DNA of 64,000 nucleotides from Methanotrichaceae archaeon (GTDB lineage Archaea > Halobacteriota > Methanosarcinia > Methanotrichales > Methanotrichaceae). The first letter of the stretch is position 1. Each line of letters opens with the position of its first letter. Shown here one piece after another: positions 1-28,941 of this stretch. The stretch covers positions 1 to 64,000 of the forward strand of contig CAWDLW010000017.1 in assembly GCA_963803145.1 (NCBI GenBank), given 5' to 3'. Below the pieces are notes generated by a model that was not told the DNA's origin, made no database searches, and saw only the letters and a program-made list of their open reading frames with translations. Both the position numbers and the translations under genes were made by a program.

Positions 1-39
1 TATGCTATACTAGGACCGTGAACTGGTGTAGAGGCTCAT

Positions 40-71
40 GTGTAGTTAGCTTTTTCGGATGTCATCTACAC
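40..71. repeat. Copy 1 of 32-bp imperfect palindromic repeat GTGTAG-N20-CTACAC (candidate recombination site)
   Basis: GTGTAGTTAGCTTTTTCGGATGTCATCTACAC; same motif at 1374, 4449 and (partial) 6421. Confidence 0.9.
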
Positions 72-107
72 CCAGCACCTACCTTCCAAAAAGTTTATCA
101 CGCTTGT

Positions 108-125
108 TATCCCACTAATGGGATA
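108..125. promoter_or_regulatory. Inverted repeat TATCCCA-N4-TGGGATA, probable autoregulatory operator of the AbrB-PIN operon
   Basis: Lies between a BRE/TATA-like AAAAAGTTTATCA and the ATG at 135; core conserved in the duplicate at ~3483-3497. Confidence 0.55.
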
Positions 126-134
126 GTGAATTAA

Positions 135-395
135 ATGCCAGTCACAAAGGTCGATGAGAAGGGCAGAGTAGTCCTGCCAAGTGAGTTCAGGCACAAGATG
201 GGGATAAGCATCGGCGACGAGTTTATTGTGGAGGAGCTGGGGCCTGATTCTCTCGTCCTGAAGCGGGTAAACCTGCGGGCTCTGATGCAGGATATCATAG
301 AGAAGGCCAAGAACATCGATATGGATAAGCTAGAGGCTGAGATCGAGGAAGAGGCTAACCGGCTTGCCAGACGAAAATACAAGATTCTTGATTGA
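135..395 (+). CDS. AbrB/MazE/SpoVT-family antitoxin (VapB-like)
   Basis: N-terminal KVDEKGRVVLPSEFR..MGI..GDE swapped-hairpin motif; overlaps a PIN gene. Confidence 0.9.
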   Translation: MPVTKVDEKGRVVLPSEFRHKMGISIGDEFIVEELGPDSLVLKRVNLRALMQDIIEKAKNIDMDKLEAEIEEEANRLARRKYKILD

Positions 396-777
396 TACCA
401 ACCTGTTCGTGGCAGCTAGCAAGAGCGGTTGGACCAGGAGCACAGATCTGCTCATAGCCCTCCTCGAAGGTCCATGGGATCTGGTTGCCGATGACATGCT
501 AATTTCCGAATACGAGCGATACGCGGACAGATTCGGCGCCCGAGATTTGCTGGCCTTGCTTAAGCTTAAGGTAATCGTAATAGAGCAATCTGGGGAAGAT
601 GTCGCTGCCTGCAAACCATTCTTCTCAGCAGGCGGAGCAGCGGATACAGTCCATGCAGCGACCTGTCTGCATACGGGAGCCACCTTAATCTCCAATGACG
701 CCCATTTTAACCGGATAAGAGATGCCAGTATCATCAAGGTCTGGAAGATCTCGGAAGCGATAAAGAGAATCCTTTGA
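364..777 (+). CDS. PIN-domain toxin (VapC-like)
   Basis: FLIDTNLFV, DTVHAATC and LISNDAHF motifs. Confidence 0.88.
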   Translation: MPDENTRFLIDTNLFVAASKSGWTRSTDLLIALLEGPWDLVADDMLISEYERYADRFGARDLLALLKLKVIVIEQSGEDVAACKPFFSAGGAADTVHAATCLHTGATLISNDAHFNRIRDASIIKVWKISEAIKRIL

Positions 778-813
778 TTATATCGGCATCTGACGCCAAG
801 TGAGAGATGCAAT

Positions 814-1011
814 ATGTATGACCGAGAAGCGATAATAAAAAAGATTCAATCTCTTGCGGATACAGATCTGGACGAGGTCGCAGAATTCCTGCGCTCCCTG
901 GAGATGAAGAAAGCAGTCGGTAAGCGCAAGCCGGATGCCCTCTCCCAGGTTATAGGCATATGCGAGGGTCCTTCAGATCTGGCTGATAAGCACGACAGCT
1001 ATGCCTACTGA
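814..1011 (+). CDS. Small antitoxin-like protein (DUF2281-like)
   Basis: 65 aa, LDEVAEFLRSL..., DLADKHDSY C-terminus; overlaps a PIN remnant. Confidence 0.65.
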   Translation: MYDREAIIKKIQSLADTDLDEVAEFLRSLEMKKAVGKRKPDALSQVIGICEGPSDLADKHDSYAY

Positions 1012-1115
1012 TAGGTCAATCTTCATAGATAGCTGGCCTTTCTGGCCCTGGCGAACAGAAAAGACAGCTATCATCAGAAAGCTGTCTGTAGCTATGAAGA
1101 GATAAAGGAAAAAGA
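1001..1115 (+). pseudogene. Frameshifted, truncated PIN toxin N-terminus
   Basis: MPTDRSIFIDSW / AFLALANRKDSYHQKA readable across a frameshift. Confidence 0.65.
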
Positions 1116-1158
1116 CGACAAAAATTGATTTAATGCTGTGATGAAAATAATGTATGAT

Positions 1159-1302
1159 TCAGCGTTTGCTTGCACGCCTACGTCGCAATTCCTCTAATGT
1201 GATCCCCTCAGATTTGTGCTTTTGTAAATACTCATATTGGGAATCAACATATGCCGCCTCACTGTAATAATCTATCTCTTCTTCTTTTACGACGGCTGCC
1301 AT
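1159..1302 (-). CDS. 47-aa acidic antitoxin-like protein (RelB-like)
   Basis: MAAVVKEEEIDYYSEAAYVDSQYEYLQKHKSEGITLEELRRRRASKR, hand-translated, below the ORF-track cutoff. Confidence 0.45.
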   Translation of the reverse strand: MAAVVKEEEIDYYSEAAYVDSQYEYLQKHKSEGITLEELRRRRASKR

Positions 1303-1304
1303 CC

Positions 1305-1405
1305 TTTCCTGACCGCGATCTCCAGCAATTCACGATTTCTTTGCACATACTGTAGGCCGGAGTAGGGACTCATGTGCAGTTAGCTTTTTCGGATGTCATC
1401 TACAC
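1305..1405 (-). repeat. Copy 2 of the palindromic repeat (1374-1405) plus ~70 bp of the wHTH gene 5' end
   Basis: Aligns with 4385-4480 and 6355-6444; one substitution in the core. Confidence 0.9.
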
Positions 1406-1639
1406 TGATTACGGTCCTGGTCTTTCTTTGGTCAGAGCCAGCTCCTACAGGACTCTTCATGTGGACTTTGTTGTCGTAATAAGGAGGGAGGCAAAAGCCT
1501 ATGTAGAAAATAGGTTATCGACTTTTGCCAATACACTATACGTCTATTGCCGATATTTAAGACTTTCGCCATAGCTAGAGAAATATGTGTCTGTTGCCTC
1601 ATAGATAGATAAGCAGAAAATAGCAAAATCGAAGACTCA

Positions 1640-2124
1640 GGCGGGGCCAACGCCGATCCACAGCGCCCTTTTAGGAGGAACCTGTCACAGAGTGCAGGCC
1701 TGACCCAGCTCAGAGTTCGATTATACGCCTGGGGCTAGAAGGCGGCACAGCACTGGAAATTCACACAGCTCCCTTCAATAGGGACCCCCAGGCATCGCCA
1801 GACGCGGGGCCTTGTGCTAGCCTTCTTGCCTTTGGCTTGATGCCGCGCCATGCCCCGACCGTGTATTAGCGTTAAGCCTGTCGGCAGATTGCTACGCAAG
1901 TTACGGCGTGCAACTTTTTCTCTGCCGAATTTCAGCTTAACAGGCTCGTAGCCGAATGCAGTGCCACGAAGACATGCATCTCCTGGAACAAGGACGCGAT
2001 CCACCCTAGAAGCGACCGCATGCTCAACCATCGATAGGGCAAACATCCAAATCTCCTTGCCAAACAGAGCATTATCAGATACGTTAAGCCCACGGCACAC
2101 CCGCCACCCTTTGCATGGCGCGCC
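1640..2124 (-). ncRNA. Candidate large structured non-coding RNA (~480 nt), family unknown
   Basis: About ten nested helices; G-U wobbles work only on the minus strand; TATA-like CTATAA ~25 bp upstream. Confidence 0.6.
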
Positions 2125-2125
2125 A

Positions 2126-2152
2126 AATTAACTATATAATCGTTATAGATAT
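2126..2152. promoter_or_regulatory. AT-rich bidirectional promoter-like segment
   Basis: TATATAA at 2133-2139 (plus) and ATCTATAA at 2150-2143 (minus), each ~25 bp from the start of a structured region. Confidence 0.5.
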
Positions 2153-2163
2153 TTGTAGTTGTC

Positions 2164-2290
2164 GCTCGGAAAACAGCCTTTGGGTAAGAGCATAAACTGT
2201 TATTCGGAAGGAATAGCAAGCGTAAGGCCAAGTCGCTGGGGCAAACACAACCGGAGAGTTGTGGCCGATCGGTCGTACGCCTCTCCGAGC
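2164..2290 (+). ncRNA. Candidate ~127-nt structured RNA, family unknown
   Basis: Closing helix GCTCGGA/TCCGAGC; internal GTTATTC/GAATAGC, GCGTA/TACGC, CACAAC/GTTGTG. Confidence 0.5.
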
Positions 2291-2409
2291 TGAAAGGCAT
2301 GGGCATGCAAAAGATTTGATAATGCAGAAAGCTAATGGAGTGGACGGCGCGAACCTATGAATGATTAGCAATGCACCGATATCAGTAATCTTGGATGGTG
2401 GGCGAGATA

Positions 2410-2857
2410 TGATCGAAATTAAGACACTGCTTTGGCTGATTTGGCCTACATTGGATCTAAAGTTCAAGCCAAAACTAGCGTGTACCTAATCGCAGGTGCA
2501 TCCCTTCTGTTGCATGGCTTGAGATGCCACGAAGGATATCGATATCTTTGCCCGAATGAAGAAGCTGACAGGATTGCATAAGAGCTCAGGCTGTCTGGCA
2601 AGATGGAGTCGTTGCTGGCATCAATGACGTTCATTTCCTCCGGTTATTTCTGAAATCTTTCACGCTTCAGATCTTCGTCAACGAGGTGTGGATTGGCGAT
2701 GAATACCAGCTTCTAAAGGCTGCACTGTGATTCGCTCACCTTTGGTGTTGTGACCTTCTTGAATCCTGATATCAAGACTCTAATTATGATCAAGGATAGG
2801 CATATCCAAGCATTGTACAACGATTGGAGGAAACTGAAAGGAGAGACATCTGTCTGA
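2410..2857 (+). pseudogene. Decayed nucleotidyltransferase (DUF6036/AbiEii-like)
   Basis: VYLIAGASLLLHGL / ATKDIDIF motif across frameshifts. Confidence 0.6.
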
Positions 2858-2890
2858 ATTCTGATGAGGATATCAGCCTTTTCGAGATTA

Positions 2891-3178
2891 CTAATCTAAG
2901 TGGGCAATGTCCCAAATCTCTCCTTTTAAAATACCCCATCCACGTTTTGTAAGCCGGATTTGATTCATCCCATTTCTAAGAGAATGCCCTTCTTCAAAAG
3001 TGCCAGATTGTGTATTTATGAAACCCCATCTTTCCAAGCGTGTTAAGCGATCTTCAAATTCTGTTTCATCAAGGCCAAGGGCTCTATTAACATTGACCGG
3101 ATTGACCCATTTGGTCAGGGATCTTTCGAGGATCGATTCGAGGATCTTTCTATCTGCTCCAACTATGTAATCAATCAT
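2891..3178 (-). CDS. Winged-helix protein
   Basis: DRKILE...LTRLERWGFI...IRLTKRG pattern. Confidence 0.65.
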   Translation of the reverse strand: MIDYIVGADRKILESILERSLTKWVNPVNVNRALGLDETEFEDRLTRLERWGFINTQSGTFEEGHSLRNGMNQIRLTKRGWGILKGEIWDIAHLD

Positions 3179-3452
3179 CTCTACTCCAATTTATCCTACC
3201 ACGATGGGAACTATCTTCGCCGAGTATCTATCACACCAGCAAATATTTATAATGATTGTTGTTAACATATAAGTACCATTCATAAGCTGAATGCGACCAC
3301 CTCCGGCATGTTAGATCGTGCCGGATTCTCCTACGTTTATTAGTCTAATATCTGCCCGATGCTATTTCATATAACTAAAAAATTTAATTTTTTTAATTCT
3401 TTAATTGACCTATTTGGCCAGACCCTCGAATGGATACCACCATGCTTTGTAC

Positions 3453-3845
3453 CTACCTCTAAAAAGTTTATCGCGCTTGTTCTCCCACTAATGGGACCGT
3501 GAAGGATAATGCCAGTCACCAAGGTCGATGAGAAGGGCAGAGTAGTCCTGCCAAGTGAGTTCAGGCGCAAGATGGGGATAAGCATCGGCGACGAGTTTAT
3601 TGTGGAGGAGCTGGGGCCGGATTCTCTCATCCTGAAGAAAGTAAACCTGCGGGCTCTGATGCAGGATATCATAGAGAAGGCCAAGAACATCGATATGGAT
3701 AAGCTAGAGGCTGATATCGAGGAAGAGGCTAACCGGCTTGCCAGACGAAAATACAAAATTCTTGATTGATGCCAACCTGTTCGTGGCAGCTAGCAAGAGC
3801 GGTAGGACAAGGAGCTCAGATCTCCCAAGCCCTCCTCGAAGGTCA
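3453..3845 (+). repeat. Near-identical duplicate of 79-472 (promoter, AbrB gene and PIN 5' end)
   Basis: Direct comparison shows only scattered substitutions. Confidence 0.95.
3509..3769 (+). CDS. AbrB-family antitoxin, paralogue of 135-395
   Basis: Differs from the first copy at four residues. Confidence 0.9.
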   Translation: MPVTKVDEKGRVVLPSEFRRKMGISIGDEFIVEELGPDSLILKKVNLRALMQDIIEKAKNIDMDKLEADIEEEANRLARRKYKILD

Positions 3846-3883
3846 TAAATCCAATAGATTATATCAGACGTGAGGTAAAATAA
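3738..3883 (+). pseudogene. Chimeric PIN remnant: 5' end of the PIN at 364 joined to the C-terminus of a different PIN
   Basis: Identity with copy 1 ends at GAAGGTC (~3844), then VINPIDYIRREVK*. Confidence 0.6.
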
Positions 3884-4093
3884 TGTCCGACGTTGATGCA
3901 ATGGATGACGTCGAGATAAGGGCACGGGGACTGGATGCTCTCTACAAGGCCCTGGGACCGGCCAGAGCCCATAAGTTCCTGGGCTATGTTTCACCGCGAG
4001 CCCACCGACTACGTTGAGATCTCCAGAAGGCTTTACGAGGGACAGACAGTTGAAGAGATCTTCGAGCGGGCAAAGAGAGAATGGACTGGATAA
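3883..4093 (+). pseudogene. Small antitoxin-like gene with a +1 frameshift
   Basis: MSDVDAMDDVEIRARGLDALYKALGP.. / ..EPTDYVEISRRLYEGQTVEEIF; 211 nt. Confidence 0.6.
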
Positions 4094-4148
4094 TGAATAG
4101 TGAGATTTCGGAACTTCACCGAGCCGTCCCGAAACCAAGTCCGAGAGC

Positions 4149-4448
4149 TTAAACATTCGATTCGAACATCCCATTCCTGGATGTGGCCATCTTCCCCACT
4201 TGTGCAAGCCACCCTAGCTCCAGTAAGACCACATCAAGCTCGGTCTGTCTCGTCTGCAATCGGCGAGCCAGGTCGCTCTTGGCCATCGAGCCACCATGCT
4301 CTGTAAGTGTCCACAGAACACGATCTTGGTCATTTCTGGCAAGGGTCTTTTTCACCTGTTTCTGAAAGCTAGGTTATCTTTACCTGACCGCGATCTCTGG
4401 CAATTCACTGATTTCTTTGCTCTTACTGTAGGCGGAGTAGGGATTCAT
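4149..4448 (-). pseudogene. Small winged-helix gene remnant next to repeat copy 3
   Basis: DRVLWTLTEHGGSMAKSDLARRLQTRQTELDVVLLEL; homologous to 6117-6420. Confidence 0.7.
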
Positions 4449-4480
4449 GTGTAGTTAGCTTTTTCGGATGTCATCTACAC
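4449..4480. repeat. Copy 3 of the 32-bp palindromic repeat
   Basis: Identical to 40-71. Confidence 0.9.
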
Positions 4481-4634
4481 TAAACCATATGGACTTGAAT
4501 ATCGCCTTAGCTACGAGTAATGCTGATACCAGTTGGCTGCAGATTACATTCTAATAATGTGCCTTTGCCGACGAGAACGTAATGATTATTTAGATGAATG
4601 ATGAACAGGTTATTCTTAAGGAGCTTGGAAGTCC

Positions 4635-5786
4635 ATGGGGAGATTATTGTTTGTCCTGCTACTAGGTATGGTGGTGGCTGCACCAGTTCTCGGGCAACAG
4701 ACTGCTATAGGTGAGAAGAGCGGGAAAGATGTAGATTCGCTAATAAAAGATCTTAAGGACGATAATAGCACGATCCGAGCGAATGCCGCAGAAGCTCTTG
4801 GAAAGATCAATGATTCCAGAGTCGTAGACCCATTGATCCATGCTCTGCATGATAGAAATAGCAGTGTAAGACAAAATGCTGTACTTGCTTTAGACTCATT
4901 AGCGGGAGGATCGCTGATCCAATCGCTGAAGGATAAAGATATCGAAGTCAGAAAATGCGCCGTATATAAACTTGGCAGCTTTGGAGTGAACGGACTATTG
5001 ATTCAAGTTTTGAAAGATCAAACTCAAGATAGTAATGTTCGAGTAAGTGCTGCATTTGCACTTGGTTCGCTCGGGAATGAAGAAGCAGTCGAACCATTAA
5101 TTCAAGCTCTCAATGATACCGATCCCAATGTACGAGCTGAAGCTGCAATTGATCTTGGAGATATCGGAGATAAACGAGCAGTAGAACCGCTGACTCGGGC
5201 TCTCAAGGATGAGAATAGCAGAGTCAGAGATTATGCTGCACAGGGTCTCGGAGAGATCAACAATACACGGTCCGACTTCATTCCTGGAGAAGCACACTCA
5301 AGAGAGTTTAGCATGGCCGCCGATTCGTGCACTATTTCATTTCCACAGAATTTGAGTCAATCGATCAACATAAGTTCAATAAATCCCGACGAGGCGGTGG
5401 CCGGAAACTCTAATTCTGTAAGTGTTCACTTTAATGTTACTCGATTTGGGTTTCCCATTTTTGGATTGCAGTTGGCTGATAAAAATTTTGAACTAAATGC
5501 GCTCAAAGTTCCGCCTAAAGGTCCTGAGGTTGTATCTAATCTAATTGGCTTGACAATTTCCAACGGGATTGCGTCTAATTACGAAATTGTTATCGGTCCA
5601 GCAACTTATCAGGGCAAACAATATACTTGGGTGGCCGGGACTTATACAGTGAAGTTACATTGTATTAACGCTGGAAAAGAGCTTGCCAACAAGACATTCA
5701 GCTTTTCTGTCAGAGGGAATGCAACAGCAGAGTCTCTCGGAAAGATCAATGATACCCGGGCTGAAGAACCACTAATTCAGGCTTAG
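4635..5786 (+). CDS. Secreted HEAT/PBS-lyase repeat protein with an inserted beta-rich domain
   Basis: Signal peptide; VR..AA.ALG.I.D.RAVEPLI.AL.D repeats; residues ~240-360 resemble ORF 62309-62812. Confidence 0.85.
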
Positions 5787-5929
5787 GGTTGACGATGTCT
5801 TTATTCGATCACCTTCAAAGAGGCTCTGACAAAAATGGGATGGCAACAGGACAGAGCATAAGGCAGGAAGTAGTCTCCAGATGGCGCAGCTCTTGCTTCT
5901 CATCTGAATATTTTTCGGAATACGCCCCA

Positions 5930-6120
5930 GAAAATGCCTTCTGAAAAAGTGAGACCAAATAGCCTAGTGACGAATACAGGCTCAACAGGATGCCAAACAT
6001 CTCCAATGCAAGAGCCACGATAAAAGCCAGATATGCACCTTGGGGCTTGATATGCTTTTTTATAGAATGGCGTGAGAGCCAGGAATGATTCAAAGAGCTG
6101 GCTGAAATGTTGATGGTCAT
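5930..6120 (-). pseudogene. Fragment of an isoprenylcysteine-methyltransferase-family membrane protein
   Basis: LTPFYKK / GAYLAFIVALALEMFGI / LFGLTFSEGIFWG in shifting frames. Confidence 0.45.
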
Positions 6121-6420
6121 CGCCCATCCCTCAATCCTACAACGAGCTTGCACTTAATCTCCGTTACCTTGACTTTCCCGGCACGCTCAAGCTCCTGCAA
6201 GACTACACAAGCTCTGTTTGTCTCGTCTGCAATCGGCGAGCCAGGTCGATCTTGGTCATCGGGCCACCATGCTCTGTAAGTGTCCGCAGAACACGATCTG
6301 GTCATTTCTTGGCAAGGGTCTTTTCCACTTGTTCTGAAAGCTACGGGTATCTTCCCTGACCGCAATCTCTAGCGATTCATTGATTTCTTGCTCATACTGT
6401 AGGCCGGAGTAGGGACTCAT
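6117..6420 (-). pseudogene. Full-length but frameshifted small winged-helix gene
   Basis: MSPYSGLQYEQEINESLEIAVRE / LTEHGGPMTKIDLARRLQTRQ / VLQELERAGKVKVTEIK. Confidence 0.7.
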
Positions 6421-6444
6421 GTGTAGTTAGCTTTTTCGGATGTC
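6421..6444. repeat. Copy 4 (partial) of the palindromic repeat; right arm missing
   Basis: GTGTAGTTAGCTTTTTCGGATGTC then diverges. Confidence 0.85.
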
Positions 6445-6644: not shown

Positions 6645-6872
6645 ATGAAGACCTTACATTACAAAGTCCTGCTCCGAAAAGAGGAGGATGGAACATATAC
6701 TGTGATTGTACCAGGCTGCTTAACATTCGGGCGAACAGTCGAGGAGGCGTTAGCGATGGCAAAAGAGGCAATTGAAGGCTTTATAGCTTGCATGATTGTA
6801 CGTAGTGAAGAAGTACCTATTGAAACCCATGATTCAATGGTATGCACTATTGCAGTTGAAGCAAATGCTTGA
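6645..6872 (+). CDS. hicB: HicB-family antitoxin
   Basis: EEDGTYTVIVPGCLTFGRTVEEALAMAKEAIEG motif. Confidence 0.88.
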   Translation: MKTLHYKVLLRKEEDGTYTVIVPGCLTFGRTVEEALAMAKEAIEGFIACMIVRSEEVPIETHDSMVCTIAVEANA

Positions 6873-6906
6873 AGGCTGAACAATTTAAACGCATACCTTG
6901 ATTAGA

Positions 6907-7004
6907 ATGGCCCGGCTGCCTTGTATAGCACCTGAAAAACTCACAAAAATACTTGAAAAATGCGGTTTCGAGCTTGAAAGGATCCGCGGTAGTCATCACT
7001 TTTA
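6907..7004 (+). pseudogene. hicA: HicA toxin truncated by IS insertion
   Basis: MARLPCIAPEKLTKILEKCGFELERIRGSHHF ends at the IS terminus. Confidence 0.8.
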
Positions 7005-7994
7005 TGCTGTGTTGCACAATATATATTATTATCATTCTCATTAAGTAATTCATTATTAAGTCTATCAAGATAAGCTATATGCTTATAATTATATCATAAA
7101 AAATGAAAGCCCTTTGAATTTCCGAAATCATGCCATCGGTTGAAGATGCTCTCACGGTCTCCCCAAAAATCCGCTTGACTGAAGAGAATAAACCTTCAAC
7201 TGCCCATCGTCGCCCATATTGGTGTATTTGTTTCCAGGCTTTGTACCCATTTTTCTTGAATTCGAGAACAGCATTTGACCTTGGTGAGGGATCATCGCCA
7301 ATTACGGCATTTTCCCTGATCTTTATTCCAGGACAATCCACTCCTTTCTCAGCCATCAGATTGAAGGCATCGTTCGTATCATATGCACCATCCATCAGGC
7401 CCTCTTTTACATCAATGTCTTTCAACAAAGGGCGCAATACCTCACTATCCGCAGTATCCTCCTCTGTAACCTCAATTGATAGGAGCTTCTTCGATTCGAC
7501 ATCAACAGCTACATGCACTTTTAGCCAGCCTTTGCGAGTCTTTCCATGTTTTTCGCGAATCCAATCACCTCTGTTTGTGACCTTTATGCCGGTCGAATCT
7601 ACTGCAACGATAGCATCGTTTTCTGGAACTGTTATTTGTAGAGCTAACTTTGAAATTCGTCGAAATAACGTCGTATAATCTGCAGCTACCAATCCTGGTT
7701 CATACTTGGAAATCTTTCCAATAAATCCTTCTATCTGACGGTATGGCATTCGCAAAAAGGAATAGATCACCGCAACAAAAATTATAAATGTATTGGGATA
7801 TTTAAATGGAGCGCCCGATTTTTTGCGGTTCATTTTCCTCAGTTCGCTATTCCAATTTTTCACGCATTGCAGGTCAAAATAGAATTCGCCCCTTCTTACG
7901 AGCTGAGCGTTGTATTCAGGCCAATTTCGTTGGTCGATATAGATCATTACATAATATTTATATTTAAACTATTTATAGCTTCTGCAACACAGCA
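7005..7994 (-). mobile_element. IS5-family insertion sequence (990 bp)
   Basis: Terminal IRs TGCTGTGTTGCA (7005-7016) and TGCAACACAGCA (7983-7994); no matching target duplication. Confidence 0.9.
7075..7947 (-). CDS. IS5-family DDE transposase
   Basis: NWPEYNAQLVRRG, VDSTG, WLKVHVAVD, DGAYD, RWAVEGLFS motifs. Confidence 0.93.
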   Translation of the reverse strand: MIYIDQRNWPEYNAQLVRRGEFYFDLQCVKNWNSELRKMNRKKSGAPFKYPNTFIIFVAVIYSFLRMPYRQIEGFIGKISKYEPGLVAADYTTLFRRISKLALQITVPENDAIVAVDSTGIKVTNRGDWIREKHGKTRKGWLKVHVAVDVESKKLLSIEVTEEDTADSEVLRPLLKDIDVKEGLMDGAYDTNDAFNLMAEKGVDCPGIKIRENAVIGDDPSPRSNAVLEFKKNGYKAWKQIHQYGRRWAVEGLFSSVKRIFGETVRASSTDGMISEIQRAFIFYDIIISI

Positions 7995-8702: not shown

Positions 8703-9676
8703 CTTGATAAATTATATAAAAAAGAGACTGATCTAAGGATTAAGGAACGGTTATTGGCAATAATACATTTATATGAAGGGAAAAACGTATATGAGGTAGC
8801 TGATATTTTAAAAAGGGGCGAGAGGACAATAAAATATTGGTTAAGCAGATGGAATAATCAAGGCTATAATGGATTGACACCAAAGAATAGAAATGGCAAA
8901 AAGCCAAAGATGTCTCTTGATGAATGGGATAGAGTTATTAAAGAAATTGAAGACAAAGGAATGACGATAAAAGACGTATTAAAATATGTAAGGGATACAA
9001 GAGGTATAGATTTTTCATATAAATATGGCTGGCGAATTTTAAGAGTAGTGAAAAAAGTTAAGTATGGGAAACCATACATCAGAAATGAAAAGAGGCCTGC
9101 AGATGCAGAAAGTTTTTTAAAAAAGGATAAAATCAGTGCTGACCACTGTTACTGATCCTGTTATAGGATTTCTTGATGAAAGCTCTTTACAACAGCGCCC
9201 TAATACACGTAGAGTCTTAAACACTCATTTAATAAATTATAAACCTGGAAAGGTTAGATCAAGAACTATTTTTGGATTTATAGCATTAAATGGCAATGAT
9301 GAGGTTATGGTTTCCAACTCCTCTAAGAAGGAAGCGTTGATGGCATTTGCTCAAAATATAAGAAATAATAATATTATGAGGCCAATTTGTATACTTTTAG
9401 ATAATGCTAGAATTCATTTGGCCAAGAAATTTAGAAAACTAGCTGAGGAAATCGATATTCACTTAATTTATAATATCCCCTATTCACCAGATTTGAATCC
9501 TATAGAATTCGGTTGGAAGGATTTCAAAAGAGAGATCGCCAAATACACTGATTTCGATGAAGCTATTATAGCTAGCCAAGATTGCGCTTTAGAAATATTT
9601 TATTCCAAAAAGGATGGATATTCAAAGTCCTGGGTGGAGCGATTTCTTAGTGCAAAAAGCTAGGAGATTAACTATA
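8703..9676 (+). mobile_element. IS630-family element, 5'-truncated; OrfA (HTH, to 9155) and OrfB (DDE, 9136-9663)
   Basis: FLDES, LDNARIH, PYSPDLNPIE motifs; slippery TTTTTTAAAAAAG at 9113-9125; no start codon before LDKLYKKETDLRIKERL. Confidence 0.88.
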
Positions 9677-11323: not shown

Positions 11324-11681
11324 TCGTTATGTTCATATTGGCCCCGATACTCATTGGGGTGTGTTCTGAAGTACATGCAGTGATCTCACCCCTTGCAAGG
11401 TAACCTAATAAAGCTTGAAACTTCTGAATATAATGGTAGTCAGAAATTACATACTATTACGGGGAAGATATTCTATGAAGCAATGGTGCATAGTCTCAAT
11501 CCCCGCATGATCACTTAGAAACCTCAATAGCCCAGATCCAAAATAATATGGCTCACAAATGGCCATAGCGAACTCCGAGGTAGTATCAGAGAAATCTTAT
11601 GTGCCAGCGTATCAGTAGTGGTATAAATAATATCTCAACCGAGACAGTCATTAACGCAATTACTGGAGCACATAAAAAGAA

Positions 11682-28200: not shown

Positions 28201-28431
28201 CTATTCACCCAGGCAGAAGGCAACGGGCCATAATCCATCAGATGCCGGCATTTGCTCCACAGCCCAACTCCTCTCCTCAAGCCTGCTCTTGATTATCTCC
28301 TCAATATCCTCAGGCCTAGCATGGAATATCTCGGCCAGGATCTCCTTGGCTGCCTGGAGCTCCAGGATCCTAGTGTTGACCTTCTTTTTGGGCTCTAGGG
28401 GCCTGGCCTCACGCCTATGCCACAGGATCAT
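28201..28431 (-). CDS. Small hypothetical protein of the PolB2 operon
   Basis: Overlaps the upstream gene at ATGA; 76 aa. Confidence 0.65.
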   Translation of the reverse strand: MILWHRREARPLEPKKKVNTRILELQAAKEILAEIFHARPEDIEEIIKSRLEERSWAVEQMPASDGLWPVAFCLGE

Positions 28432-28941
28432 GAGAATGCCTCCAGCGTCGTCTGGCTCTTCTGAGCTCTCGGATTAGCCTTTGCTACAACTCTCGCCTCA
28501 GCCCTCGGTCCTTCATCGAAGTAAAACACCCTGTCGGCATTCTTGACCAGCTCCTCAAGGTAAGGGTCTGCTCCTGGTGCATAGAGCAGCACAGCCGCCT
28601 CATTCGAAGCCACTCTCATGGCCTGGGAGACGTATTCAGTCATCTCTTGGGCATTTTCGTATAGTAGGGGATCATGCTCTATTATCACAATCGTATGGTG
28701 ATTCTGCTCAAGAACTGTCATGAGCTGGAAGACGGTGAAGGCCCTGCGAACATCCAGGGCCTCGAACTTGCGGTCCAGGCTGCTGAGGATTGAGGAATAG
28801 TTCCCGCAGACGTAGATCACATTGAACCTCTGCAGGTTGAGATGACTATTAAGGGCCTGTGATGAACATCTCCCTTGGGGCCAGGAGGGCGTTGAAGGAC
28901 CTGGATCTGAGGGTTATTGTGGGGTATAACTCAAAGTTTAT
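28428..28941 (-). pseudogene. Degenerate RadA/RecA-fold protein of the PolB2 operon, frameshifted
   Basis: RRAFTVFQL motif; N-terminal FELYPTITL..FNALLAP in another frame; ATA at the expected start. Confidence 0.7.

What the first reader, a model, noticed from the sequence alone, without database searches (positions are those of the whole stretch)
35..6444. Integron-like array of cargo blocks delimited by a 32-bp palindromic site at the 5' end of a wHTH gene
Seen: four direct copies of the site (40, 1374, 4449, 6421). Its 11-bp arms match 8/11 as inverted repeats around a 10-bp spacer. On the minus strand the site is followed directly by the ATG of a small winged-helix gene. Similarity stops sharply at CTACAC on the right, while the left extent varies (~5, ~70, ~240, ~300 bp of the gene). 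The blocks between sites (1.3, 3.1, 2.0 kb) hold TA modules, candidate ncRNAs and a HEAT protein; HicBA follows the last site. The core is better conserved than the decayed wHTH copies. Established: tyrosine recombinase sites are inverted arms around a short spacer, and TA-rich cassettes are typical of integron and pdif arrays. Inference: repeated site-specific integration by a recombinase encoded elsewhere, or one-ended transposition. The site does not fit canonical attC.
Basis: partly seen in the sequence, partly recalled or inferred. Interest (0 to 1): 0.85.

Follow-up and report, generated by a model that had tools for sequence, protein, structure and literature searches.

The report
Repeated promoter-end module with cargo blocks
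Four decayed head-to-tail copies of the promoter end of a small winged-helix gene separate blocks of toxin-antitoxin and other genes in a methanogen genome; the repeat always ends at the same base, which hints at targeted recombination, but it is not an integron.

Summary
The four copies exist (40, 1374, 4449; 6421 lacks the last 8 nt) and occur nowhere else in this 4.13-Mb Methanotrichaceae genome. The repeat is not a free-standing 32-bp site. It is the upstream end of a ~0.4-kb module: a promoter-like 32-mer, a ~165-nt leader, and a 66-aa winged-helix gene. All window copies are frameshifted or truncated. The module is 91-93% identical in another genus whose shared genes are ~70% identical, so it moves horizontally. 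In four different contexts homology stops at the same base after CTACAC (98% identity to the left, 26% to the right). Other breakpoints also exist: 8 nt inside the site, in the leader, and in the gene. The palindrome is no better than chance (103 such 8/11 palindromes in the window) and does not fold. No integrase, tRNA, attC-like structure, or virus or plasmid match was found.

Best reading (~0.4): stepwise accretion of DNA segments that each carry a module copy, recombining with the resident copy. The 32-mer acts as the wHTH gene's promoter/operator, and its outer edge is a preferred breakpoint. The integron-like reading is partly supported.

By-product: cargo block 2 holds a copy of a multicopy, ~640-nt structured RNA that is very abundant in a peat metatranscriptome.

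The parts
40..71 (.). site copy 1 (full 32-mer); right junction J1 to the AbrB-PIN module
   Evidence: same junction in metagenome contig L012 and in a contig of run X1 that starts at 42
1..39 (-). diverged leader remnant of copy 1, cut by the contig start
   Evidence: window = C17:1-64000; alignment
85..777 (+). MazE/AbrB-like antitoxin (135-395) and PIN toxin (364-777) with own promoter-like AAAAAG+TTTATC box
   Evidence: Pfam; three copies compared
814..1011 (+). 65-aa ORF, weak DUF2281 match (below cut-off)
1159..1302 (-). 47-aa ORF whose ATG is fused to the 70-nt leader of copy 2; its 5' part also lies beside the module in G042
   Evidence: 88% over 102 nt
1304..1373 (-). 70 nt of leader, copy 2
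1374..1405 (.). site copy 2 (1 mismatch)
1406..1470 (.). flank F, shared with both G005 copies (junction J2, probably the older arrangement)
1486..2128 (-). copy of a multicopy structured RNA family; the divergent small ORF seen beside other copies is missing here
2891..3178 (-). 95-aa ORF, weak wHTH-PRTase-associated match (below cut-off); part of the 1472-3420 block that G005 holds at 87%
3458..3848 (+). second AbrB copy (96% to 134-433) with truncated PIN
3883..4215 (+). module X: frameshifted small antitoxin-like ORFs plus tail; lies right of the site in contig L011
4216..4448 (-). wHTH pseudogene (3' end missing, frameshifted) plus leader, copy 3
4449..4480 (.). site copy 3 (full); junction J3
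   Evidence: J3 also in contigs of runs X3 and X4 and its flank in G042
4635..5786 (+). HEAT-repeat protein with signal-like N-terminus; paralog on contig C5
5815..6153 (-). small hydrophobic ORF whose ATG overlaps the stop of wHTH copy 4 (ATGA); no Pfam family
   Evidence: hydrophobic stretch seen by eye
6117..6420 (-). full-length but frameshifted and stop-bearing wHTH gene plus leader, copy 4
6421..6444 (.). site copy 4, first 24 nt only (junction J5)
   Evidence: the same kind of junction can be read in database protein P0003
6645..7044 (+). HicB (6645-6872) and HicA (6898-7044); HicA matches only profile positions 3-25 of 58 and is followed by a DDE transposase gene (7075-7947, minus)

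Best explanation
What is repeated is the upstream end of a gene module. On the minus strand the module reads: a 32-bp element (GTGTAG, then a 20-nt stretch holding a BRE/TATA-like run of A's followed by an A/T-rich stretch, then CTACAC), a ~165-nt leader that is a decayed N-terminal extension, a 66-aa winged-helix gene, and in some copies a small hydrophobic ORF.

The module moves horizontally among Methanotrichaceae.

The array most likely grew by accretion. DNA segments that carried their own copy of the module (circles or incoming DNA) recombined with the resident copy in Campbell fashion. This left cargo between direct repeats of the module, and older copies then decayed by deletion from the gene side.

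The 32-mer most likely works as the core promoter/operator of the wHTH gene. Its outer edge is in addition a preferred breakpoint, exact to the base. This points to a sequence-specific step: a recombinase or nuclease acting in trans, or a bound protein that blocks replication.

Shown: the anatomy, the decay, the horizontal spread, the exact edge, and the recurrence of arrays. Inferred: promoter/operator function, circular intermediates, and any enzyme.
For: Anatomy
- One intact copy in G005 (88-aa ORF; wHTH by weak Pfam matches, DUF7343 4e-5).
- 107 database homologs. All 29 that I aligned start at the 66-aa form.
- Long forms P0046 and P0064 open 27 nt from the site.

Decay
- Stops and frameshifts in copies 3 and 4. 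Copy 2 keeps 70 nt.

Horizontal spread
- The unit is 90.6-93.6% identical between G000 and G005, against 69-72.6% for syntenic genes.
- The site occurs in 2 of 105 genomes of the order.

Exact edge
- Between four junction classes, identity is 0.98 in the last 30 nt of the site and 0.26 in the next 30 nt.
- Each class is also seen in another genome, metagenome contig or run.

Recurrence
- Contig L011 holds module, cargo (X, two HicBA-like ORFs named by eye) and a second module fragment between the same neighbours that flank a single module in G005.
- Removing 72-1405 from the window restores the site-F order seen in G005.

Island
- Synteny with same-genus G002 begins only at window base 11,493.
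Against: - No recombinase, tRNA or circle junction was found.
- Only contigs, not reads, could be laid, so excision could not be tested.
- Breakpoints also lie 8 nt inside the site (copy 4), about 18-35 nt into the leader (G042), 70 nt into the leader (copy 2) and inside the gene (copy 3, L011). Recombination here is therefore not confined to one point.
- The cargo blocks are mosaics of other repeated modules, as in a plain junkyard.
- Promoter function rests on position and likeness only. An RNA-library contig covers 4254-4472, which does not fit a start just downstream of the site, though its depth is low and it may be DNA.
- Better conservation of the site is not significant (p = 0.067).
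Confidence: 0.4

Rival explanations
1. A true site-specific cassette system. The 32-mer is the crossover site of a recombinase encoded elsewhere, and blocks are captured and excised as circles with one site each.
For: Three independent junctions fall at exactly the same base next to an inverted repeat. All four copies are in direct orientation. The cargo is rich in TA modules. A second array exists in L011. The genome holds 13 tyrosine-recombinase matches on other contigs.
Against: No recombinase lies on C17, on L011 or L012 (by eye, not searched with a profile), or next to the G005 copies. No integrase gene is shared at 80% or more between G000 and G005. Arm and spacer geometry (6 perfect bp, 20 nt apart) is unlike known core sites (recalled). 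The site does not fold. Other breakpoints exist inside the module. Homology between copies runs 70-330 nt beyond the site, so ordinary homologous recombination suffices.
Confidence: 0.17
2. Plain junkyard. Ordinary segmental duplication, illegitimate recombination and deletion in a TA-rich variable island. The 32-mer is only the promoter/operator, and the shared edge reflects selection for an intact promoter plus deletion of useless DNA.
For: All copies are pseudogenes. AbrB-PIN is duplicated with other boundaries. IS5-like and IS630-like genes lie next door. Many breakpoints exist. The AbrB module also begins about 14 nt before its own promoter box in 3 of 3 copies.
Against: Selection can set a lower limit but does not explain three junctions with at most 1 nt of left-over flank. 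The same junctions recur in other genomes and runs at 88-98% identity, so they are old and stable. In junction J3 about 95 nt of unrelated DNA follow the edge, so trimming to functional edges did not happen there.
Confidence: 0.25
3. The 32-mer is the terminus of a transposon, provirus or MITE whose first inward gene is the wHTH, as small HTH genes sit behind the terminal repeat of some IS (recalled). The copies are stumps of repeated insertions or of one-ended transposition.
For: One exact end with a variable other end. The two arms look like abutted terminal repeats. The unit is spread horizontally.
Against: No further copy of the 32-mer or of its half-sites beyond chance in 4.13 Mb. Only 2 copies in G005. 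The duplicate pair in G005 shares 110 nt beyond the supposed end. No transposase is linked. No match in viral contigs, phage or plasmid records.
Confidence: 0.07
4. A Xer/dif-like site, with blocks that behave like the pdif modules of Acinetobacter plasmids.
For: Eleven-nt imperfect inverted arms; TA cargo.
Against: The spacer is 10 nt, not 6. All sites are direct rather than alternating (both features of pdif are recalled). The site is absent from 103 of 105 genomes of the order, so it is not the chromosomal dif.
Confidence: 0.03

Closest known systems
Tandem accretion of integrative elements at one attachment site (ICE/CIME arrays; islands stacked at tRNA genes) - recalled
   Same: Direct repeats of part of a target gene separate unrelated cargo. 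One end of the repeat is exact and the other varies. Older units lack their own recombinase and decay.
   Different: The target here would be the promoter end of a small regulator gene, not a tRNA 3' end. No integrase or excisionase was found. The blocks are only 1.3-3.1 kb.
Integron cassette arrays / CALINs, including archaeal ones (PMC9668308, passages seen)
   Same: An array of cargo separated by one recurring imperfect palindrome in one orientation; no integrase nearby, as in CALINs; addiction modules among the cargo.
   Different: The site does not fold as a single strand and is 32 bp. It continues into 70-330 nt of shared gene sequence. The blocks hold several genes on both strands with their own promoters.
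Autoregulated MarR/TrmB-type winged-helix genes with an operator over their own promoter - recalled
   Same: A small wHTH gene. An inverted repeat brackets a BRE/TATA-like box at the right distance from the long-form start codon. Further GTAG-like repeats lie in the first 35 nt of the leader (by eye).
   Different: This does not explain clustering, an exact edge in four contexts, or 91-93% identity across genera.
pdif modules (XerC/D) of Acinetobacter plasmids - recalled
   Same: Short inverted-arm sites flank TA and other small modules.
   Different: Spacer length, site orientation, chromosomal island setting, archaeal host.

Membership tests
Integron / attC array | Integron integrase (tyrosine recombinase with the IntI-specific domain) next to the array, or elsewhere for a CALIN | tested here: not met
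   PF00589: 13 matches in the genome, none on contig C17. The IntI-specific domain was not tested.
Integron / attC array | attC folds as a single-stranded imperfect hairpin (passages of PMC9668308) | tested here: not met
   The DNA fold gives only the 6-bp stem: -2.5 to -3.3 kcal/mol, z 0.12, 0.19 and -0.40 against 200 shuffles.
Integron / attC array | Tandem short ORFs, generally in one orientation, each followed by an attC | tested here: not met
   The blocks are 1.3, 3.1 and 2.0 kb, hold 1-5 genes on both strands, and include an RNA gene.
Xer/dif or pdif-type site | 11-nt arms around a 6-nt spacer; one chromosomal copy per genome, conserved among relatives (recalled) | tested here: not met
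   The spacer is 10 nt. There are four copies in one array. The site is present in 2 of 105 genomes of the order.
IS / MITE terminus | Dispersed copies with the same end, a partner end and target duplications | tested here: not met
   No copy lies outside the array in 4.13 Mb. Half-sites occur once each elsewhere. No partner end was seen.
Integrative element at a tRNA gene | A tRNA gene or fragment at the repeat | tested here: not met
   ARAGORN found 0 tRNA genes in the window and in 5 related loci.
Core promoter/operator of the wHTH gene | Lies about 25-35 nt upstream of the start of transcription or of a leaderless start codon; BRE/TATA-like box; bound by the regulator | tested here: inconclusive
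   The site ends 27 nt before the ATG of the long forms. Its spacer holds a run of A's plus an A/T-rich stretch like the neighbouring AbrB box (by eye). Start of transcription and binding cannot be tested here.
Winged-helix DNA-binding protein | wHTH fold or profile match | tested here: inconclusive
   Pfam DUF7343 4.1e-5 (23.8 bits, cut-off 27.6); MarR and TrmB are weaker. The AF2 model has pLDDT 77 with helices plus a beta-hairpin wing. Foldseek against PDB found no match at E <= 0.001; the best hits are Z-alpha, MarR and ArsR folds at E 0.2-0.5.

The most novel reading that the evidence does not exclude
The 32-mer is the crossover site of an undescribed archaeal cassette-accretion system in Methanotrichaceae. 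Promoter-bearing cassettes (TA modules, a structured RNA, surface proteins) each carry the site plus the small wHTH gene as an accessory or regulatory factor. A recombinase encoded elsewhere stacks and shuffles them, and this moves them between genera.
Probability: 0.15. Interest if true: 0.8.

Novelty: new variant of a known kind. Interest (0 to 1): 0.45.

Why it matters
Little is known about how Methanotrichaceae, globally important acetate-using methanogens, acquire and shuffle accessory genes. Here a small module is exchanged between genera. It ends at the same base in every context and nucleates tandem arrays of TA and other cargo. This gives a concrete, testable handle on recombination in these hard-to-grow archaea: one 32-mer, one 66-aa protein, and a short list of host recombinases.

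If the edge is enzyme-made, this is a new cassette platform. If not, it is a clean example of a promoter/operator acting as a recombination hot spot.

The cargo also exposed a conserved, multicopy, very highly expressed structured RNA with no Rfam family. That RNA may matter more than the array.

Tried and rejected
Searches that found nothing
- Rfam found nothing in the window, L007 or L008 at gathering scores. At E <= 1 in 1300-2900 it gave only a chance IRES hit.
- Viral contigs: 0 pattern matches and no protein relative. Plasmid and phage records: no match.
- Exact-pattern scans found only the G005 MAG in genome contigs and two contigs in metagenome contigs.

Tests that did not help
- The consensus fold of leader plus site has 40 pairs and only 1 compensatory change, so there is no support for a leader RNA structure.
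- I tried to sample junctions through spurious ORFs that read across the site. The first query was too short. A longer one found no candidate.
- Paralogous wHTH genes (35-46% identity; C11, C25, C27, C42) show no similar upstream site by eye.
- The 73% homolog on G005:C161 has another upstream region.
- No 'empty site' could be defined. G002 has an unrelated 728-aa ORF where the island lies. Contig C5 of G000, syntenic on the far side, starts inside an unrelated gene.
- No wHTH gene lies next to two other copies of the RNA, so wHTH-RNA linkage is not general.

Run data
- No run held more than 0.19 of the sampled words. Only contigs could be laid. Parts without cover say nothing.

Tools and steps not available


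Full report
**Setting.** The window is the first 64 kb of contig C17 of a 4.13-Mb, 51-contig genome. Its only close holder of the same site, G005, is filed as a Methanotrichaceae archaeon MAG and belongs to the same family but another genus. Synteny with the same-genus genome G002 starts only at window base 11,493 (87% identity). In G002 the far side is syntenic with contig C5 of this genome. The array therefore lies in a strain-specific island that also holds an IS5-like gene (7075-7947) and an IS630-like gene (8754-9663).

**The observation.** The repeat finder gives four direct copies of a 56-nt family at 25, 1359, 4434 and 6406, plus longer families to their left.
- The 32-mer with up to 3 mismatches occurs at 40, 1374 and 4449, against 0.00 expected in 100 shuffles.
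- Its first 24 nt occur four times in the whole genome, all forward, all here.
- Copy 4 diverges after 24 nt.
- Copy 1 lies 39 nt from the contig start, so its left extent is unknown.
- The named cargo is real: MazE/AbrB-like + PIN, a second AbrB with a truncated PIN (96% identical DNA), a HEAT-repeat protein, and HicB with HicA. HicA matches only profile positions 3-25 of 58 and is followed by a DDE transposase gene.

**What is repeated.** Alignment of the four copies with two from G005 and two metagenome contigs shows a module, not a bare site. On the minus strand it reads: the 32-mer, about 165 nt of leader, then a winged-helix gene.
- Only G005:C74 has an open gene, an 88-aa ORF from a GTG. 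Pfam gives DUF7343 at 4e-5, below its cut-off, with weaker MarR and TrmB matches.
- An AF2 model (pLDDT 77) has helices and a beta-hairpin wing. No PDB fold match reaches E 0.001.
- The protein database holds 107 relatives. I aligned 29, chosen for lengths of 59-69 aa. All begin at M/L-P-R-N/S-D, about 165 nt from the site, and the alignment shows 80% mean column identity.
- The ATG that touches the site opens only 14 codons in G005 (reading).
- A second ATG 27 nt from the site opens long forms in a few relatives. P0046 is in frame after a shift, and P0064 has a sense codon where G005 has TAG. The leader is therefore best read as a decayed N-terminal extension.
- In the window every copy is broken. 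Copy 4 is full length with frameshifts and stops, copy 3 lacks its 3' end, and copy 2 keeps 70 nt of leader fused to the ATG of an unrelated 47-aa ORF.

**Distribution.**
- The 24-mer (up to 3 mismatches) is found in 2 of 105 genomes of the order, G000 and G005.
- Leader plus site by BLAST is found in 4 of 105: G000 and all 3 genomes of genus g4.
- Close protein relatives (E <= 1e-12) occur in 2 of 392 genomes of the class and in 1 of 401 sampled from the phylum, G000 itself.
- Between G000 and G005 the module is 90.6-93.6% identical, while syntenic genes are 69-72.6% identical. This means recent horizontal transfer.
- Block 1472-3420 is likewise 87% identical to a third G005 contig.

**The edge.** To the right of CTACAC there are four unrelated continuations:
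- J1: the AbrB promoter (copy 1, contig L012, a contig of run X1).
- J2: flank F followed by the RNA gene (copy 2, both G005 copies).
- J3: copy 3, contigs of runs X3 and X4, and its flank in G042.
- J4: contig L011, and a joint in run X3.

Between classes, identity is 0.98 in the last 30 nt of the site and 0.26 in the next 30 nt. At most one base of flank is shared, so at least three independent breakpoints fall on the same base.

Other breakpoints exist too:
- 8 nt inside the site (copy 4; the same junction can be read in database protein P0003).
- About 18-35 nt into the leader in G042, where a piece of the 47-aa ORF takes the site's place.
- 70 nt into the leader (copy 2).
- Inside the gene (copy 3; the 41-nt fragment in L011).

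**The palindrome.** It consists of a perfect 6-bp inverted repeat 20 nt apart plus 2 of 5 further matches.
- Such 8/11 palindromes occur at 103 of 63,969 window positions at this spacing, and 2,034 times over spacers 0-20.
- As single-stranded DNA it folds no better than shuffles.
- Its conservation (3 of 32 variable columns, against 19 of 70 in the leader) is a trend only, p = 0.067.
- Its spacer carries a run of A's followed by an A/T-rich stretch, like the box before the neighbouring AbrB gene (by eye).
- It ends 27 nt before the long-form ATG. By what I recall of archaeal promoters, that is where a core promoter for a leaderless or short-leader mRNA should sit.

**No recombination machinery was found.**
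- There are 13 PF00589 matches in the genome, none on C17.
- There are 17 in G005. Of the 15 loci fetched, none matches G000 at 80% or more over 200 nt or more within the integrase gene itself.
- No tRNA genes were found in the window or in five related loci.
- There is no hit in viral contigs, phage records or plasmid records.

**Arrays recur.** G005 and contig L011 share the same neighbours: genes syntenic with C20 on one side and the upstream region of a CHASE4 histidine kinase on the other.
- G005 has one module followed by F.
- L011 has a module, 61 nt, module X, two ORFs that look like HicB and HicA by eye, and then a 41-nt fragment of a second module fused to the kinase upstream region.
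- This is cargo between two module copies, with later deletion.
- In the window, removing 72-1405 restores the site-F order of G005.

**Mechanism.** These facts fit Campbell-type insertion of segments that each carry a module copy. Homologous recombination within the 100-400 nt shared sequence would suffice for that step. It does not explain why the module always ends at the same base. I therefore commit, at about 0.4, to accretion at a promoter/operator module whose outer edge is a preferred, sequence-defined breakpoint. The agent of that cut is unknown. Rivals:
- A dedicated site-specific cassette system, 0.17.
- A plain junkyard with selection for an intact promoter, 0.25.
- A transposon or provirus terminus, 0.07.
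- A Xer-type site, 0.03.

**Comparison with known systems.** It works most like accretion of integrative elements at one attachment site (recalled). It looks superficially like a CALIN.
- Membership in the integron family fails on three tested features: no nearby integrase, no attC-like fold, and no cassette architecture. The family features were taken from passages of PMC9668308 (search listing).
- Xer/pdif, IS/MITE and tRNA-island memberships also fail on tested features.
- I did not search the literature for this particular module, so I make no claim that it is unpublished.

**By-product: a structured RNA.**
- Window 1474-2160 has no conserved ORF: the longest open run varies from 70 to 184 codons among 25 copies, with no 3-nt periodicity.
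- It belongs to a family found in 63 of 105 genomes of the order, including 54 of 59 in the largest genus, with several copies per genome and about 70-75% identity.
- On the window's minus strand the consensus fold has 143 pairs, 97.1% of cells canonical, and 36 pairs with changes on both sides. When partners are slid by 1-3 columns the figures are 39-46% and 6-12. None of 200 within-pair shuffles reaches the observed pairing.
- The plus strand gives 95 pairs and less than half the energy.
- In a peat metatranscriptome the summed contig depth is 84,285 (bin 1639-1872) and 469,500 (bin 1873-2106), against 0-94 in the bins outside the RNA gene and 973 in the bin at its 5' edge. Contigs cannot give strand or ends.
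- Rfam has no match. Two literature searches (listings only) turned up nothing relevant, which does not show that it is unpublished.

**Limits.**
- Only eight site-bearing sequences could be read.
- Earlier findings could not be consulted.
- Paper supplements were not requested.

Noticed in passing
window 1486-2128 (minus strand); paralogs G000:C18:129189-129919 and C42:11407-12139: A multicopy, ORF-less, ~640-nt element with a conserved secondary structure: 143 pairs, 36 with double-sided changes. It is found in 63 of 105 genomes of the order and reaches a summed contig depth of 469,500 in a peat metatranscriptome. It has no Rfam family. It is a candidate new large structured RNA of Methanotrichaceae.
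   Followed up: partly
L061:2284-2460 (G000:C18), L007:13095-13325 (G005): A small lysine-rich ORF (58-76 aa, no Pfam family) lies divergent from the 5' side of most RNA copies, behind a conserved TATA-like box. It is missing from the window copy.
   Followed up: partly
window 1474-1570; also G000 C8:84393-84494, C8:533826-533915, C17:86131-86231, C17:87290-87386, C17:203974-204069, C1:13435-13525, C42:46756-46832: The ~100-nt 3' part of the RNA (a purine-rich run, then an inverted repeat of the type GGCAAAAG...CTTTTGCC) also occurs alone at seven or more places in the genome, several of them beside TA-like genes.
   Followed up: no
G000:C11:16629-17271; C25:8771-8908: Paralogous small wHTH genes (35-46% identity) lie in tandem. 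Each is followed by a short membrane ORF that ends in the motif WWQFWK. The same tail appears in read-through forms of the wHTH relatives P0088, P0096 and P0100.
   Followed up: no
window 85-433, 3458-3807; G000:C12:133567-133942: There are three copies of the AbrB-PIN module. Their homology starts about 14 nt before the promoter box in all three, and two are cut at nearly the same place in the PIN gene.
   Followed up: partly
window 28201-28820 (minus); remnants left of the wHTH gene in G005 and L012: A two-gene family (130 aa + 76 aa, no Pfam family) has many paralogs in the genome. Its pseudogene remnants lie convergent to the wHTH gene in three of the related loci.
   Followed up: no
L044:17029-19669 (G002) and G000:C30:86157-88796: A 2.6-kb stretch with a 728-aa ORF is 96.5% identical between two species of the genus, whose syntenic DNA is 83-92% identical. 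It sits at different loci in the two genomes, and in G002 it lies where the island lies in G000.
   Followed up: no
window 2409-2848: An ORF-poor stretch of cargo block 2 is conserved in G002 (77%) and in G005:C150. It has high DNA depth in run X3 (187-220). Its nature is unknown.
   Followed up: no
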